DNA of 64,000 nucleotides from an uncultured Parachlamydiaceae bacterium (GCA_963801335.1 CAWDEQ010000001.1:1452237-1516236); one strand, 5' to 3'. Shown: positions 44,362 through 62,288, counted from the first letter of the stretch. Notes: generated from the sequence alone by a model not told the origin. Made by a program: numbers and translations.

Positions 44362-44445
44362 GCTCGGATGGTGGAATGGTAGACACTAGGGACTTAAAAT
44401 CCCTTGGGCTTTTTGCCCGTGCTGGTTCGAGTCCAGTTCCGAGCA
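44362..44445 (+). tRNA. tRNA-Leu (anticodon UAA)
   Basis: Hand-folded. The acceptor gctcgga pairs with tccgagc, with discriminator A. The D arm is gtg-gaatggtaga-cac. The anticodon stem aggga pairs with tccct, with loop cTTAAaa. There is a long variable arm (gggc-ttttt-gccc) and a T arm ctgg-ttcgagt-ccag. No CCA is encoded. Confidence 0.9.
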
Positions 44446-44447
44446 AT
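44391..44447 (+). repeat. attL: 57-bp core shared with 62232-62288 (3' part of tRNA-Leu)
   Basis: This perfect 57/57 direct repeat runs from the anticodon stem to 2 nt past the tRNA 3' end. The flanking bases differ on both sides. Confidence 0.9.
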
Positions 44448-44724
44448 CTCTGACTAAGGGATTTAGAAAAGGGAAATATCCCTCAAATGGTTAGAATGGA
44501 TTCTTTTCACCATTTTTTCGCCACTCATTCACAACACGAACCGACAAATGGCAATAATGAAAAGGTTCGCATATGTTGTATTTGACTGGAGAAAATTTGG
44601 CAAAAAATCCTGACTTTTCAGGTTCATTATCACTAGTTCTCGAGTGGAAAATCACAAAGACCCATGGGATTATCTATCCCATGGGTTATTTTTTTTGCAA
44701 AAAATTTGACCAAGGAGAGATCAA

Positions 44725-45773
44725 ATGGCAACAATAACACAACGCAAAGATAAAGACGGAAAGATTCGATTTTATGTGCGGATTAGGATGAAAGGAAATC
44801 CGCCTGAGCATGCTTCATTTTAAGCGAAAAAAGGATGCTGAACGATGGATCCAGCGAACAGAATCTGCAATGAGGGAGGGACGTCACTTCAAAACGTCCG
44901 AGGCAAAGAAGCATAGTCTAAGTGAGCTCATTGATCGATATATATGCTTTGTCCTTCCTACAAAGAAAGAAAAGTATCCCCAAACAAACAGCTCAGCTTC
45001 ACTGGTGGAAAAAGAAAATCGGGCATTATCTTCTTTCAGACATTACCCCATCTCTTATTGCCGAGCAAAGAGACAATCTTCTTAGAGAGGTCACCAACCG
45101 GGGAGAATTTAGAAGTGCAGCTACAGCTGTAAGATACATGGCCGCTTTGTCACATGCATTTACTGTCGCCGTCAAAGAATGGGGATGGATTGATGATTCA
45201 ATCGTAAAGTCACAAAACCAAAAGAACCGAGGTAGAGTTAGATTCTTAGATGAGGATGAAAGAACAAGATTATTGGCAGCTTGCAGGAAAGTCAAAATCC
45301 TTATCTCTATACATCATTGTATTGGCCTATCCACAGGTATGCGTCAAGGAGAAATTCTGAATCTCAAGTGGTCTGATGTAGATATCGAAAGGGGGCGGGT
45401 AATCCTACACGAGACTAAAAACGGGGAAATTCGTCAAGTGCTATTGCTGGGCATGCTTTGGAGCTAGTTAAGCAATTAGATAAAGTTCGACGAATTGATA
45501 CGCATTTATTATTTCCTGCAAAAAATCCGCAAAGCCTTGGATATGCGTACAGCTTGGGAGGCCGCTGTGAAGCGAACGAAGATCACAAATCTTCGATTTC
45601 ATGATTTACGCCATTCTTGCGCATCCTATCTTGCAATGGGAGGAGCCAGTCTTGCTGAGATTGCTGAGGTTCTTGGTCACAAAACCCTTGCGATGGTGAA
45701 ACGTTATGCGCACCTCTCTGACACACATACAGCGGGTGTTGTAGCCAAAATGAACGAAAAAATCTTTGGGTGA
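44725..45773 (+). pseudogene. Tyrosine recombinase (phage integrase), multiply frameshifted
   Basis: RBS aaggagag plus an ATG at 44725. The homology runs through at least four frames or segments: MATITQRKDKDGKIRFYVRIRMKGNPPEHASF / KRKKDAERWIQ... / ...LSTGMRQGEILNLKWSDVDIERGRVILHETKNGEIR / ...LRFHDLRHSCASYLAMGG...LGHKTLAMVKRYAHL. The catalytic R, HxxR and Y boxes are recognisable but sit in different frames. Confidence 0.85.
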
Positions 45774-45855
45774 TGGTATGGATTACACATCTAGTTCCTC
45801 CATCAGATGAAGAGATATTGAAGACAGATTTTATTGGAACTCATGAAGCTGCTTT

Positions 45856-46653
45856 TTGGCTTGTAGGATGGCCAAGGAAGGGGATTCTGAATATTATCCC
45901 GATCCTACGGTTCCATTTTACCCTGATAAATATGGGATAGAATTTCAGTCAGTATTTGAGGATTTGGAAGAATCAATAAAGAGGCATTATTTACGAGCAA
46001 AAATGACCACTAGTATTCCAGGTCTCTTGCATGCAGTGAGACCTAAAGATGTTCTAATATGGGCACTTGAGAAGGGTAGGATACCATCACGTCTTTTGAC
46101 TTTAACCGGGTTTCGACAAATTGATGACGAAACGAATTGGCCAAGATCTAAACGTGCTATAATCAATAAAATAGTTTTCCAGTGTATCTATAACGAACAT
46201 CCTCATTTGATTTCTCAAAGAGACTTTTTAAACCATCCCTGGATAGGTAAATATGGTGAAAAATCCTATTATCAAAATGGGGAACTAAAGGCTTTGAAAA
46301 AACAATTAAAAGAAGCATTGGGATTCAAGGCAGATCGTGGAAAAAATGAATCCAAAGCGAAGTTATCTCTAAAGCAGATCGAGGAAATAATGCGTGTGGA
46401 TAACGATTGTGTACAATATAGCCTGAGAGCATTTCAAACTTTCATTTCCATTGTTTGCCGTGTAAAAAAAGATCTATTGGAAACAAGTCCACATAAAATA
46501 AGAGAAATTACCCCTGAGGCATTTATGGAAAGTGTTTATCACTATAAAATTGTCGTTCCATATCTTGAACAGGCCCCATCAATTCTTTTGGAGGAAGTGA
46601 GGAGAATTTGTTTGCTCTACGTCCCGGAAATTCTAATACGATATTTAAGTTAA
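45856..46653 (+). CDS. Hypothetical island protein
   Basis: 265-aa ORF with no recognisable motif. A 27-codon ORF starting at the ATG at 45773 (overlapping the integrase stop) may be its displaced N-terminus, with the shift at a T5 run at 45853-45857. Confidence 0.5.
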   Translation: MACRMAKEGDSEYYPDPTVPFYPDKYGIEFQSVFEDLEESIKRHYLRAKMTTSIPGLLHAVRPKDVLIWALEKGRIPSRLLTLTGFRQIDDETNWPRSKRAIINKIVFQCIYNEHPHLISQRDFLNHPWIGKYGEKSYYQNGELKALKKQLKEALGFKADRGKNESKAKLSLKQIEEIMRVDNDCVQYSLRAFQTFISIVCRVKKDLLETSPHKIREITPEAFMESVYHYKIVVPYLEQAPSILLEEVRRICLLYVPEILIRYLS

Positions 46654-46798
46654 ATCGCCATTTAAAAAAAAGGTTGTAATTGAGTTGACTATTCACAAGT
46701 ACGCATGAATTCCAGTAGGTTATTGCTAATTTCAGTGAGAGTATTTAGATCGTCGCTGAAAACCAAAAAGATAATGCTTTAGAAGCAAAGGAGGAAGT

Positions 46799-60639: not shown

Positions 60640-60972
60640 CTTTTGCTTTCATTGAATAGAAACATCCATTGGTGTTATCTTATCCACACCTACTCAATCA
60701 GGAGCCTTCTAATGGATATGGAAATCACCGACCTCGAGCTATTCCTCTTCGACCTGATCATTGATGCCCTAGAAGTAGGGGAAAGCGACAAAATGGATTA
60801 AACCTTACTATATTGCCTATTTCCTGGAAGCCTAGCAAAGGCATTTTTATACGTCAGTCTCACGCTATTCCACTGATATCCTAATTACTTAGTTAAAAAT
60901 TTTTACTTATTGATATTAAATTACTTATCGCTTAATCTCTATCGTTCTTTCCTAAACAACACGGAGGTTCTC

Positions 60973-62037
60973 ATGTTTAAAAAAATATGTACATTAACGA
61001 TTCTTTCACTTGTGGCTATGTCAAGCTTCTTAGCGGCAATTGAGTATGATATTCAGGACATTGGCACTCTGCAAACTCGTTCAAGTCAGGCTATTGCTCT
61101 TAATAATAAAGGGCAAATTCTTGGGTGGTTCAATGTAGATGGGACTAATAATGGGAAACATTTTTTCTTTAGGAATCGGGATGGGGTTTTTTATGAAATT
61201 CCCGGTAAGGAACCATCAACAGCACTTGCAATCAATTGGCAATTCTTAACTGACGAAGGAAAAGTCTATGGAACTCATGAAGTGAGTACAACTAGTAGAA
61301 CACTATATCTATGGGATCAACAAAACGGGGTTGTTAAACTCGGAGTTCTTCCTGGAAAGGAGGTTGTAGCTATCAATAATAAGGGAGAAGTCTTAATTAA
61401 GTCTGTTACCGAGACAATAAATGGGAGGCCTATCACGTTTCCTATTACTTGGAAAAATGGAGTTGTAAAAAAGTTAAAAGGTCTCGAAGGTAACTTGGGT
61501 ATTGAATCTGAAGAAACATGTGGACTTGGGCTCAATAATAATGGAGATGTCGTCGGTCAAAGTCGCGTTAATATTATTTATAAAAACAATGAATATAAGA
61601 CGTTTAACCATGCTGTTTTATGGAAAGAAGGAAAATGCATTGATCTACACAACGGACTCCCGAAATCTACAGATAGTGCTGCATTTGCAATAAATGATAT
61701 TGGGGATATTGTGGTAGGCGTGCAATCTCTTCCAAACTCCGAAACTAGATATTTATTAAAAAAGAATGGAACATGTATCAAACTAAGCTCAAATGGTGTA
61801 GAAAAAATTAATAATTTGGGAAATACATATTTCGGTCCAGTTGTGTTAAATGAATTGGGAAACTATACTCTTAATAAAAGTGTAATTAATGATGATTTGA
61901 AATATGACTTTGAGTCAATTTGGGTAAGCATTTCAAATATTGCAAAAATGAATGATAATGGTGAAATCATTGCAAATGGAAAAACGATTTATGGTGAAGA
62001 GCACGCAATGTTGCTTGTACCGAAGAATAAGTCCTAA
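60973..62037 (+). CDS. Secreted HAF-type extracellular repeat protein
   Basis: RBS ggagg plus an ATG at 60973. Signal peptide MFKKICTLTILSLVAMSSFLAA. There are six or more repeats of the A.aIN(n/d).G.vvG type: AIALNNKGQILGW, VVAINNKGEVLIK, GLGLNNNGDVVGQ, AFAINDIGDIVVG, VEKINNLGNTYFG and IAKMNDNGEIIANG. Confidence 0.65.
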   Translation: MFKKICTLTILSLVAMSSFLAAIEYDIQDIGTLQTRSSQAIALNNKGQILGWFNVDGTNNGKHFFFRNRDGVFYEIPGKEPSTALAINWQFLTDEGKVYGTHEVSTTSRTLYLWDQQNGVVKLGVLPGKEVVAINNKGEVLIKSVTETINGRPITFPITWKNGVVKKLKGLEGNLGIESEETCGLGLNNNGDVVGQSRVNIIYKNNEYKTFNHAVLWKEGKCIDLHNGLPKSTDSAAFAINDIGDIVVGVQSLPNSETRYLLKKNGTCIKLSSNGVEKINNLGNTYFGPVVLNELGNYTLNKSVINDDLKYDFESIWVSISNIAKMNDNGEIIANGKTIYGEEHAMLLVPKNKS

Positions 62038-62053
62038 ATCCATTCGTCTTTCA

Positions 62054-62085
62054 AGAGAGGACAGATTGTCCTCTCTCTCTTTTCT
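62054..62085 (+). terminator. Rho-independent terminator
   Basis: agagaggac (62054-62062) pairs with gtcctctct (62068-62076), followed by ctcttttct. Confidence 0.6.
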
Positions 62086-62231
62086 ATAAAGCTCATTTCA
62101 CCAATTTTTCACCACTCATCGGCAAAAAGCGGCAAATAACGGCAACTCATGACAAAAAATTAATTCATGTAAACATTTAATCGTGTAGCTGTTATGGTCT
62201 GTGATGTGTTGTGGATTTTTGGTTCTCATAT

Positions 62232-62288
62232 GACTTAAAATCCCTTGGGCTTTTTGCCCGTGCTGGTTCGAGTCCAGTTCCGAGCAAT
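62232..62288 (+). repeat. attR: 57-bp duplicate of the tRNA-Leu 3' part
   Basis: Identical to 44391-44447. It lacks the tRNA 5' half, so it is not a functional tRNA. Confidence 0.9.

What the first reader, a model, noticed from the sequence alone, without database searches (positions are those of the whole stretch)
44391..62288. 17.8-kb terminase-encoding, phage-like element integrated in tRNA-Leu(UAA) of a chlamydial chromosome
A perfect 57-bp direct repeat duplicates the tRNA-Leu 3' part from the anticodon stem onward (44391-44447 = 62232-62288). It brackets a tyrosine integrase, two HTH/excisionase-like genes, an SF2 helicase, an SF3-type NTPase, a primase, an SSB, small and large terminase subunits, and large unknown late genes. 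To my knowledge, the phages described for Chlamydiae are small ssDNA Microviridae. A dsDNA-packaging (terminase) element in a chlamydial genome would therefore be unusual. No recognisable capsid, portal or tail genes are visible, so the late module may belong to an uncharacterised virion type or be too decayed to recognise.
Basis: partly seen in the sequence, partly recalled or inferred. Interest (0 to 1): 0.8.

Follow-up and report, generated by a model that had tools for sequence, protein, structure and literature searches.

The report
Decayed capsid-less phage-like element in Chlamydiae
A 17.8-kb mobile element sits in a tRNA-Leu gene of an environmental chlamydial chromosome; it carries phage DNA-packaging and replication genes but no capsid, portal or tail genes, this copy is riddled with disabling mutations, and it belongs to a previously uncharted family of similar 10-20 kb elements common in environmental Chlamydiae.

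Summary
A perfect 57-nt direct repeat (44391-44447 = 62232-62288) duplicates the 3' part of tRNA-Leu(UAA) and brackets a lower-GC element. The host is chlamydial (GrgA, conserved synteny). Profile searches support the integrase, SF2 helicase, primase, SSB, gp3-type small terminase and large terminase. The two HTH/excisionase calls are not supported.

New findings:
1. This copy is defective. It has two nonsense substitutions (TerS, helicase N-terminus). About 34 small deletions break the integrase, TerL and the late genes. Host DNA in the same window is clean.
2. A 99%-identical, circularly permuted 17.8-kb metagenome contig keeps those genes open.
3. The two large "unknown late genes" (455 and 914 aa when repaired) are all-helical. 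Their homologues lie at the far end of the virion module of ~40-kb phages that have a P22-type portal.
4. About 30 related loci in Chlamydiae MAGs, plus circular 17-19 kb episomes, share integrase, replication genes, TerS and TerL, with or without these two proteins. None has a detectable coat, portal or tail gene.

Best reading: a decayed member of a satellite-like, terminase-carrying element family. Terminase genes in environmental chlamydiae had been noted before, so the finding is not unprecedented, but the family and its architecture appear undescribed.

The parts
44362..44445 (+). tRNA-Leu(UAA), intact; integration target (attL side)
   Evidence: ARAGORN; Rfam RF00005 56.7 bits
44391..44447 (.). 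left copy of the 57-nt direct repeat (from the anticodon stem to 2 nt past the tRNA 3' end)
44810..45773 (+). tyrosine integrase pseudogene in at least 4 frame pieces. It has 9 small deletions relative to L001, plus one frameshift in the N-terminal arm domain (A-rich run ~44962-44975) that is shared with L001
   Evidence: PF00589 halves; frames; indels; N-terminal homology to intact integrases of L003/L007/L008/L034
45770..46653 (+). 294-aa protein of unknown function that follows the integrase (37% identical copy in L003; same-sized gene at this position in most relatives); broken by a 1-nt deletion at 45872
   Evidence: no Pfam/PHROG/PADLOC hit
46799..47101 (+).
   Evidence: no hits
47489..47734 (+). 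81-aa ORF, conserved in L062 (40% id); the HTH call is not supported by profiles
47999..49354 (+). SF2 (ResIII/DEAD) helicase. In-frame TAA at 48122-48124 arose by substitution (TCA in L001). The 409-aa ORF from TTG 48125 keeps all helicase motifs
   Evidence: Pfam; stop
49423..51189 (+). 588-aa intact replication NTPase with a Walker A motif (GTGKS), related to the C-terminal part of primase-polymerase/helicase proteins
   Evidence: phrog_29234 2e-115, phrog_19930 1e-31; 61% identical to part of the L003 782-aa protein
51310..52398 (+). DnaG/T7-type zinc-ribbon primase, intact
   Evidence: PF08273 1e-8; phrog_849/47
52464..52937 (+). 157-aa conserved protein of unknown function (also in L003, L029, L032, L154)
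52934..53362 (-). single-strand DNA-binding protein, intact
   Evidence: PF00436 2e-15
53896..54390 (+). small terminase subunit (P22 gp3 type), inactivated by a CAG->TAG substitution at 54064-54066 (Q57*)
   Evidence: GP3_package; nonsense; 44-62% identical TerS next to TerL in about 35 loci
54371..55894 (+). large terminase subunit pseudogene, in three frame pieces because of 5 small deletions (54842-54848 and 55389-55407)
   Evidence: PHROG; frames; the repaired protein is 98% identical to intact P0001; indels
55897..56522 (+). 192-aa late protein of unknown function, broken by deletions at 56070 and 56459
56541..57900 (+). 453/455-aa all-helical late protein ('p455'). The N-terminus is lost here through deletions at 56638 and 56652, leaving a 384-aa ORF at 56746-57900
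57897..60639 (+). 914-aa all-helical late protein ('p914'), in four frame pieces here
   Evidence: repair; full-length homologues of 888-996 aa; AF2; 405 representative clusters
60910..62037 (+). 375-aa intact cargo gene. It has a hydrophobic N-terminus suggesting export and a weak DUF3466 match (25.0 bits against a cut-off of 25.1)
62054..62076 (+). terminator-like hairpin (10-bp stem plus T run) closing the late operon
62232..62288 (.). right copy of the 57-nt direct repeat (attR)

Best explanation
The feature is a defective, integrated copy of a phage-derived mobile element that belongs to a family of 10-20 kb elements of environmental Chlamydiae. Steps marked 'shown' rest on tool results; the rest are inferred.

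Integration. A tyrosine integrase recombined an attP that carried the 3' 57 nt of tRNA-Leu(UAA) with the chromosomal gene. This restored an intact tRNA at attL and left a partial copy at attR. The structure is shown; the reaction is inferred from how tRNA-targeting integrases work.

Replication. After excision the element would replicate with its own SF2 helicase, 588-aa NTPase, primase and SSB (inferred from homology). Circular or circularly permuted copies of it and of relatives exist (shown).

Packaging. A gp3-type TerS and a TerL would cut and package the element's DNA. The element family encodes no coat, portal or tail, so the particles must come from a co-resident helper phage, probably a ~40-kb phage with a P22-type portal. 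In other words it would live as a phage satellite (inferred; no helper identified).

Late proteins. The 192-, 455- and 914-aa proteins are encoded right after TerL. In complete phages the homologues of the two large ones lie at the distal end of the virion module, where P22 has its ejection proteins. In some relatives the giant protein carries the polyvalent-protein domain LPD38. They are most likely packaged with the DNA and delivered into the next cell (inferred from position only).

State of this copy. TerS and the helicase N-terminus carry nonsense substitutions. The integrase, TerL and all three late genes carry frame-breaking deletions. Only the replication genes and the cargo gene are open, so this copy can no longer excise or package itself.
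For: Element boundaries and host. Gene identities.

Defective copy. Compared with the 99.0%-identical contig L001 (ENA ERZ25039544 contig_47362, 17,766 bp) there are 41 indels in 15.4 kb, and 34 of them are bases missing in the window. There are also two nonsense substitutions. In contrast, the host segment 30714-42906 differs from an independent conspecific contig (L073) by 29 substitutions and a single gap in 12.2 kb.

Free form. L001 is circularly permuted relative to the prophage, and its junction lies at the att region.

Family. The TerL scan of one genome per species found 57 loci, about 30 of them in Chlamydiae/Parachlamydiales MAGs at 51-72% identity. The layout tRNA, integrase, replication genes, TerS, TerL recurs. 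Repeat-bounded relatives: 17.3 kb at tRNA-Phe, 14.8 kb at tRNA-Lys, 19.8 kb at tRNA-Leu(taa), 10.0 kb at tRNA-Tyr and ~16.1 kb at tRNA-Met.

Circular episomes. L072 is 16,978 bp with a 30-nt terminal overlap. L154 is 18,812 bp with a 141-nt overlap, and three permuted assemblies are 100% identical.

Size cap. Among the 120 best TerL hits, 27 of the longest contigs fall in 16-21 kb and only 2 in 21-30 kb.

No coat or portal. P22-type portal and the phage MCP find nothing in the window or in any chlamydial locus. Pfam/PHROG scans of proteins downstream of TerL find only cargo genes or LPD38 proteins. The p455 and p914 models are all-helical, with no PDB fold match.

Link to complete phages. p455/p914 homologues end the virion module of 38-40.5 kb IMG/VR phages that have an MCP (phrog_1357, 7e-41) and tail genes. 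One such 40,176-bp contig also has this TerL family and a P22-type portal, with about 11 kb of portal-to-tail genes between TerL and the p914 homologue. TerL at 58-59% identity sits next to a P22_portal gene in L070 and L071.
Against: No helper phage, induction or encapsidation is shown. 'Ejection/injected protein' rests on gene position only: hhalign finds no homology of p455 or p914 to P22 gp20 or gp16, and this TerL is not of the P22 gp2 family. The window's own p914 has no LPD38 domain. The portal and coat negatives in relatives rest on single-sequence phmmer and a sample of profile scans, so very divergent structural genes in some relatives could be missed. Part of the family (L072, L154, L002) carries ParA and no tRNA-like attP, which fits plasmid-like maintenance as well as satellite behaviour. 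L001 lacks the 106 bp (44 nt + the 57-nt repeat + 5 nt) that a simple excision circle should contain, and L001 has its own broken genes (helicase, p914 C-terminal part, cargo gene). Sequencing error in one or both long-read-style assemblies therefore cannot be excluded as the source of some indels. In an NJ tree, TerLs of portal-bearing phages are interleaved with those of the small elements, so the small elements may have arisen several times or may exchange TerL with phages.
Confidence: 0.55

Rival explanations
1. It is simply the remnant of one complete ~40-kb temperate phage that lost its portal-to-tail block by deletion and is now eroding. It has no life style of its own.
For: This copy is clearly eroding. 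Its late genes correspond to the two ends of a complete phage's late operon, i.e. TerS/TerL and the distal virion proteins.
Against: The same reduced architecture recurs in about 30 divergent loci (TerL 51-78% identical) at different tRNAs with clean direct repeats. It also recurs in intact circular 17-19 kb molecules assembled independently several times, and free contigs show a sharp size cap near 20 kb. Independent deletions would not converge like this.
Confidence: 0.15
2. The family consists of integrative plasmid-like replicons that merely retain phage-derived genes. Terminase and the large proteins serve a role other than encapsidation, or none, and spread is vertical or by another route.
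For: ParA, toxin-antitoxin pairs and iteron-like repeats occur in the circular relatives L002, L072 and L154, which have no tRNA-type attP. Koestlbacher 2021 describes phage-derived gene sets on chlamydial plasmids.
Against: TerS plus TerL are the most conserved genes of the family and are intact in most copies. That is hard to explain without packaging. The window element and L001 have no ParA. No chlamydial plasmid in PLSDB carries this TerL.
Confidence: 0.2
3. The frameshifts are consensus errors of a long-read assembly in a region present in several forms (integrated plus episomal), and the integrated copy is really intact and active.
For: L001 has a 'contig_N' name, a style I associate with Flye long-read assemblies (my inference), and has its own broken genes. 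Differences between the two copies are unusually rich in 1-nt indels (41 indels against 100 substitutions). One frameshift in an A-rich run is shared by both copies.
Against: Two of the inactivating changes are base substitutions that create stop codons. Indels are absent from 4.4 kb of the replication module but dense elsewhere. The 44 kb of host sequence in the same contig shows no split genes and only 1 gap in 12.2 kb against an independent assembly.
Confidence: 0.1

Closest known systems
Phage-inducible chromosomal islands (PICIs) and related phage satellites
   Same: Size of 10-20 kb. Integrase at one end, next to the att site. Direct repeats from site-specific integration. Own primase/helicase replication module. 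Own small terminase. No coat, tail or lysis genes. Accessory cargo at the far end.
   Different: It also encodes a large terminase and up to three large virion-module-type proteins. No Stl/AlpA-type regulator was recognised. The host phylum is Chlamydiae, where no tailed helper phage is known. Induction and packaging are untested.
Capsid-forming PICIs (cf-PICIs)
   Same: A satellite-sized element carrying both TerS and TerL.
   Different: cf-PICIs encode their own coat, portal, protease and connector proteins and borrow only tails. Here none of these is present.
Satellite phage P4
   Same: Integrates in a tRNA-Leu gene, has its own primase/helicase-type replication, and can exist integrated or as a plasmid (own knowledge). 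The family here likewise has both integrated and episomal members.
   Different: P4 has no terminase and relies on Sid/Psu/Delta functions; no such families were hit here. There is no sequence relationship beyond the generic integrase and primase folds.
Temperate podophages with a P22-type late operon (Lederbergvirus and uncultured ~40-kb relatives L063-L071)
   Same: gp3-type TerS. The same TerL family sits next to a P22_portal gene in uncultured relatives. p455/p914 homologues occupy the position that gp20/gp16 occupy in P22 (P22 map).
   Different: The element lacks portal, scaffold, coat, adaptor, needle and tailspike genes. Its TerL is not homologous at hhalign level to P22 gp2, and p455/p914 are not detectably homologous to gp20/gp16.
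Protochlamydia naegleriophila genomic island PnaK_GI2 (Bertelli et al. 2016, PMC5010888)
   Same: A chlamydial chromosome island directly downstream of a tRNA gene with a TerL of the same family (P0076, 58% identity).
   Different: It was described only as an island with a putative terminase. Architecture, family and episomal forms were not analysed. It uses a different tRNA (Thr).
Chlamydiamicroviruses (Chp1, Chp2 etc.)
   Same: They infect or reside in members of the phylum Chlamydiae.
   Different: They are ~4.5-6 kb ssDNA Microviridae without terminase or integrase (own knowledge). They are unrelated in every gene.

Membership tests
Complete temperate tailed prophage (Caudoviricetes) | Integrase and att repeats | tested here: met
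   57-nt repeat at tRNA-Leu and PF00589
Complete temperate tailed prophage (Caudoviricetes) | Large terminase | tested here: met
   phrog_2 1.6e-16; repaired protein 98% identical to intact P0001; the gene is frame-broken here
Complete temperate tailed prophage (Caudoviricetes) | Portal protein | tested here: not met
   No Pfam/PHROG hit in any ORF; phmmer with P22-type portals of related phages finds nothing in the window
Complete temperate tailed prophage (Caudoviricetes) | HK97-fold major capsid protein | tested here: not met
   No profile hit. The MCP of related phages finds nothing. The only large unknown proteins are all-helical in AF2 models
Complete temperate tailed prophage (Caudoviricetes) | Tail and lysis genes | tested here: not met
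   No Pfam/PHROG hits at E<=0.001 (only one marginal PHROG tail-fibre/lysozyme match at E 0.0011); no coding space is left between TerL and attR beyond p192, p455, p914 and the cargo gene
PICI-type phage satellite | 10-20 kb island with integrase at one end and flanking att repeats | tested here: met
   17,841-bp spacing, integrase about 360 bp from attL; relatives are 10.0-19.8 kb
PICI-type phage satellite | Own replication module (primase/helicase) | tested here: met
   ResIII helicase, phrog_29234 NTPase, Zn-ribbon primase, SSB
PICI-type phage satellite | Packaging-redirecting function such as its own TerS | tested here: met
   gp3-type TerS, with a nonsense mutation in this copy
PICI-type phage satellite | Master repressor / AlpA-type regulator next to the integrase | tested here: inconclusive
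   The small ORFs 46799-47101 and 47489-47734 and the 294-aa protein have no HTH or other profile hit
PICI-type phage satellite | Helper-phage-dependent excision, replication and encapsidation | not testable with these tools
   Only indirect evidence: circular copies in metagenomes; no helper identified
Capsid-forming PICI | Own coat, portal, protease and head-tail connectors together with TerS/TerL | tested here: not met
   TerS and TerL are present, but no head genes
P4-like satellite | Psu/Sid/Delta capsid-size and transactivation genes | tested here: not met
   No such Pfam/PHROG family was hit by any ORF
P22-like late operon | gp3-type small terminase | tested here: met
   GP3_package 4.6e-5 over the full profile, but below the gathering score; related copies are listed with GP3_package among precomputed Pfam hits
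P22-like late operon | gp2-type TerL and gp7/gp20/gp16 ejection proteins | tested here: not met
   hhalign of the family profiles against P22 gp2, gp20 and gp16: probability below 1%
Polyvalent proteins (Iyer et al. 2017) | Giant multidomain protein with LPD or effector domains encoded beside the packaging genes | tested here: inconclusive
   Relatives L003, L007 and L154 carry LPD38 (7e-22 and 2e-38 for L003 and L007; precomputed Pfam hit for L154), and L003 and L007 share an N-terminal domain with p914. The window's p914 itself has no LPD38 or enzymatic domain

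The most novel reading that the evidence does not exclude
Environmental Chlamydiae may harbour a distinct class of phage satellites, in integrative and plasmid-like forms of 10-20 kb. These would carry a complete terminase (TerS plus TerL) and their own set of proteins injected with the DNA, but no capsid, and would parasitise still-undiscovered tailed phages with a P22-type portal that infect obligate intracellular chlamydiae. 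That would mean dsDNA tailed phages and particle-mediated gene transfer exist in this phylum.
Probability: 0.35. Interest if true: 0.8.

Novelty: new variant of a known kind. Interest (0 to 1): 0.6.

Why it matters
The only characterised chlamydial phages are small ssDNA microviruses, and gene transfer in this obligately intracellular phylum is poorly understood. A widespread family of terminase-carrying, tRNA-integrating or episomal elements implies that tailed-phage particles circulate among environmental chlamydiae and move DNA between them. One member lies in a cultured organism, Protochlamydia naegleriophila, so the idea can be tested experimentally. Such elements could also become packaging or integration vectors for organisms that remain hard to manipulate genetically. 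For satellite biology, an element that keeps both terminase subunits and virion-internal proteins but no capsid would be an architecture between PICIs and capsid-forming PICIs.

Tried and rejected
- Megablast of the whole element against 50,697 phage records: no match.
- tblastn of the p914 family against the same phages: no match. The family is known only from uncultured sequence.
- TerL against PLSDB plasmids: no chlamydial plasmid. The 'phage group' terminase of Koestlbacher 2021 is therefore not obviously this family.
- Profile searches of the p455 and p914 alignments against PDB sequences and Foldseek of both models against PDB: nothing significant. BFVD gave only one uncharacterised uncultured-phage homologue of p455.
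- hhalign against P22 gp2, gp20 and gp16: no homology. I therefore dropped the label 'P22-like terminase/ejection proteins' and kept only the positional analogy.
- PADLOC on the unknown proteins and on the two genes right of attR: nothing specific.
- Exact-protein look-ups of window proteins to name the source record failed. The source is known only as an NCBI/ENA contig of 1,521,166 bp.
- Two metagenome scans, one for the attR/empty-attB junction and one for the attL/attP junction, found nothing. An empty site or an attP-bearing circle could not be shown.
- I considered that L001's junction is the true attP and that the 57-nt repeat is an older scar. I rejected this because the two alignment blocks abut with no shared core, which a tyrosine recombinase would require.
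- The 22-nt repeat family D2 looks like chance.

Full report
**1. Observation**

The window holds one tRNA gene, tRNA-Leu(taa), at 44362-44445 on the + strand. A perfect 57-nt direct repeat lies at 44391-44447 and 62232-62288, with a spacing of 17,841 nt. It runs from the anticodon stem to 2 nt past the 3' end of the tRNA. The last 22 nt of the repeat occur nowhere else in the window even with three mismatches allowed, and never in 100 shuffles. GC is 0.478 in the host part and 0.425 between the repeats.

Upstream lie DnaE, Lnt, the ribosomal-protein operon, SecY, RpoA, GapA and a GrgA-family transcription factor (NF045799, E 1e-40). GrgA is a Chlamydia-specific factor (own knowledge), and this gene order matches chlamydial chromosomes. 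The source is an NCBI/ENA contig of 1,521,166 bp that I could not name.

**2. Gene content**

All but one gene are on the + strand. The table gives the profile evidence.

| Gene | Evidence |
|---|---|
| Tyrosine integrase | PF00589, two halves |
| SF2 helicase | ResIII + Helicase_C |
| 588-aa NTPase | phrog_29234 2e-115; C-terminal part of phrog_19930 'DNA polymerase/primase'; no Pfam hit |
| Zinc-ribbon primase | Zn_Ribbon_Prim; phrog_849 |
| SSB (minus strand) | PF00436 |
| Small terminase, gp3 type | GP3_package 4.6e-5, full profile length, below the gathering score; related copies are listed with GP3_package among precomputed Pfam hits |
| Large terminase | phrog_2 1.6e-16, phrog_26724 1e-46, phrog_2472 3e-40; no Pfam hit |

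No ORF hits a portal, capsid or lysis family; the only tail-category hit is a marginal PHROG match (tail fibre/lysozyme, E 0.0011) in one p914 fragment.

**3. This copy is defective**

Three-frame reading shows breaks in the integrase, TerL and the late genes.

The repaired TerL found an intact 509-aa protein, P0001, at 98% identity. It lies on a 17,766-bp ENA metagenome contig, L001. L001 is 99.0% identical to the element. Over 15.4 kb the two differ by 100 substitutions and 41 indels, and 34 of the indels are 1-5 nt missing from the window.

Frame-breaking changes in the window:
- integrase: 9 deletions;
- the 294-aa gene;
- TerL: 5 deletions;
- the 192-aa gene;
- the N-terminus of the 455-aa gene;
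- the 914-aa gene.

Two further inactivating changes are base substitutions: CAG->TAG in TerS at 54064 and TCA->TAA at 48122-48124 in the helicase N-terminus. No indel falls in 50445-54841, which covers the replication module.

As a control, host segment 30714-42906 differs from an independent conspecific contig (L073) by 29 substitutions and one gap in 12.2 kb. The conserved host genes I checked are full length and the host ORF map shows no obviously split genes. The indel excess is therefore about 30-fold and confined to the element.

L001 is not perfect either. Its helicase is split into 241 + 170 aa, and its p914 C-terminal part and cargo gene are broken. Both copies also share one frameshift in the integrase arm domain, in an A-rich run. 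I read the window copy as truly decaying, mainly because of the nonsense substitutions and the clean host DNA. Only raw reads can exclude local consensus error.

**4. A free form exists**

L001 is circularly permuted relative to the prophage. L001 1-11766 equals window 50445-62187, and L001 11767-15456 equals window 44453-48126. Its internal junction lies exactly at the att region.

The junction joins 62187 directly to 44453. It thus lacks the 106 bp (44 nt + the 57-nt repeat + CTCTG) that a simple excision circle would contain, and there is no shared core at the joint. I cannot explain this. It may be an attP-deleted episomal variant.

**5. The 'unknown late genes'**

*p914.* Joining L001 and window frames gives a 914-aa protein. 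Its full-length homologues are 888-996 aa, the best being P0138 at 82% identity over 100% of the length. The family has 405 representative clusters in 1.84 billion proteins. It has no member in 50,697 deposited phage genomes.

*p455.* The gene before p914 encodes a 453/455-aa protein when intact.

*Structure.* AlphaFold models of both are almost entirely helical. The p455 model has pLDDT 76. The p914 model has pLDDT 63, with a confident core at residues 330-760. Neither matches a PDB fold. p455 has one homologue in an uncultured tailed phage in BFVD (E 4e-9). Neither protein is a coat or a portal.

*Context in complete phages.* Homologues of both proteins lie side by side at the end of a virion module in contigs of about 38-40.5 kb (L060; IMG/VR L063 and L066-L069). 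That module contains a major head protein (phrog_1357, 7e-41) and tail genes.

One 40,176-bp IMG/VR contig carries this TerL family, a P22-type portal, the MCP, tail genes and the p914 homologue in that order. About 11 kb of portal-to-tail genes separate TerL from the p455/p914 position. TerL at 58-59% identity also sits beside a P22_portal gene in two other ~40-kb phage contigs.

In P22 the corresponding distal genes are the ejection proteins gp7, gp20 and gp16 (map). The analogy is positional only, because hhalign finds no homology to gp20, gp16 or gp2.

In relatives L003, L007 and L154 the giant protein carries the Pfam domain LPD38, and those of L003 and L007 share an N-terminal domain with p914. 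LPD38 is a marker of the 'polyvalent proteins' that Iyer et al. 2017 (PMC5512222) predict are packaged and injected with phage DNA.

**6. A family, not a one-off**

A TerL scan of one genome per species returned 57 loci. About 30 lie in Chlamydiae/Parachlamydiales MAGs at 51-72% identity, including four contigs of 2.2-3.3 Mb (two deposited as complete chromosomes). P0076 is the TerL of Protochlamydia naegleriophila (58% identity), presumably the one Bertelli 2016 reported in island GI2.

The loci share this order: tRNA, integrase, a ~300-350-aa unknown protein, primase/helicase genes, TerS, TerL. This is often followed by a p455-like protein and a giant protein of 767-1570 aa, and sometimes by cargo such as type I R-M or an ABC transporter.

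Relatives bounded by tRNA-derived repeats:

| Locus | tRNA | Size |
|---|---|---|
| L018 | Phe | 17.3 kb |
| L021 | Lys | 14.8 kb |
| L029 | Leu(taa) | 19.8 kb |
| L034 | Tyr | 10.0 kb (ends about 1.4 kb after TerL) |
| L008 | Met | ~16.1 kb |

Free relatives are circular:
- L072 is 16,978 bp with a 30-nt terminal overlap. It carries PolA, a primase-helicase, TerS, TerL, p455-like and p914-like proteins, Fic, an integrase and ParA.
- L154 is 18,812 bp with a 141-nt overlap. Three permuted assemblies are 100% identical, and its TerL was read on 19 contigs, none above 20 kb.

Among the 120 best TerL hits, 27 of the longest contigs fall in 16-21 kb and only 2 in 21-30 kb.

P22-type portal and MCP queries hit only the 30-40 kb phage contigs. 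They never hit a chlamydial locus or the window. That negative is weaker for distant relatives, because it rests on single-sequence phmmer.

**7. Interpretation**

The anatomy is that of a satellite-like element. It can integrate, replicate and cut or package its own DNA, and it possibly supplies proteins that travel with the DNA. It must obtain heads and tails from a helper phage. No helper, induction or encapsidation is shown, so I give this life style about 0.45 and the whole composite statement 0.55.

Rival readings:
- A single-phage deletion remnant. The recurrent, intact, size-capped architecture argues against it.
- Plasmid-like replicons whose terminase is not used for encapsidation. 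ParA, toxin-antitoxin pairs and iteron-like repeats in part of the family support this.
- Assembly error rather than decay.

In an NJ tree, TerLs of portal-bearing phages are interleaved with those of the small elements. This fits exchange between helpers and satellites, or repeated origins. The tree has no support values.

**8. Novelty**

Terminase genes in environmental chlamydiae have been mentioned before (PMC5010888, PMC7846284, PMC5512222). My literature searches found no description of this element family, its architecture, its circular forms or a satellite interpretation.

It is best filed as a new variant of a known kind: phage satellite or PICI-like island. It differs from those by carrying TerL plus virion-internal-type proteins and by its host phylum. 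The specific window copy is a decaying example, which lowers its individual value. The family it points to is the interesting part.

Noticed in passing
window 17729-17775 (+): Rfam gathering-level hit to Acido-Lenti-1 RNA (RF01687, 41.6 bits against a cut-off of 37, E 5e-6). It lies in a host intergenic gap. By its name I take the family to come from Acidobacteria and Lentisphaerae, yet here it is in a chlamydial contig.
   Followed up: no
window 62406-63540: Directly right of attR are a 155-aa protein with a weak 23S_rRNA_IVP (four-helix bundle) match and a 203-aa HEPN_AbiU2 protein (PF18734, 4e-9). GC stays low (~0.40) to the window end. This may be a second island or defence genes at the same tRNA hot spot. 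PADLOC gave no hit.
   Followed up: partly
L001 11766/11767 versus window 62188-62288 + 44391-44452: The 99%-identical circularly permuted contig lacks exactly the 106 bp around the attachment site (44 nt + the 57-nt repeat + CTCTG), with no microhomology at the joint. This is unexplained; an attP-deleted episome is possible.
   Followed up: partly
window 45199-45535: The nine deletions in the integrase fall into three neighbouring groups that each sum to a multiple of 3: -3,-1,-2 (total 6), -1,-1,-1 and -1,-1,-1. The frame is therefore restored after short garbled stretches in the first two groups. All the missing bases are C next to a C. This is odd both for random decay and for random sequencing error.
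   Followed up: no
window ~44962-44975 and L001 ~12275: One frameshift in the integrase N-terminal arm-binding domain, inside the run CAAAGAAAGAAAAG, is shared by the window and L001. Homologous integrases in L003, L007, L008 and L034 read through. It could be an inherited mutation, a systematic homopolymer error or programmed slippage.
   Followed up: partly
L154 18175-18485 (circular 18.8-kb relative): The intergenic region between the integrase and the 441-aa gene holds iteron-like repeats (CTTAACTTCCGAAGTT... variants). The element also has ParA and a Gp49/HTH_37 toxin-antitoxin pair, all plasmid-type maintenance features, alongside TerS/TerL.
   Followed up: no
L018 11526-20420; L023 11582-19968: In some integrated chlamydial relatives TerL is followed not by the late proteins but by cargo. 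L018 has an ABC transporter plus an AadA-type nucleotidyltransferase. L023 has a complete type I restriction-modification system.
   Followed up: no
L059 (OY969414.1, 2.40-Mb Chlamydiales chromosome) 10001-10164: A short TerL fragment, 90% identical to the window's TerL over about 55 residues, lies elsewhere in a chromosome that also carries a full family member (L025). This suggests further decayed copies.
   Followed up: no
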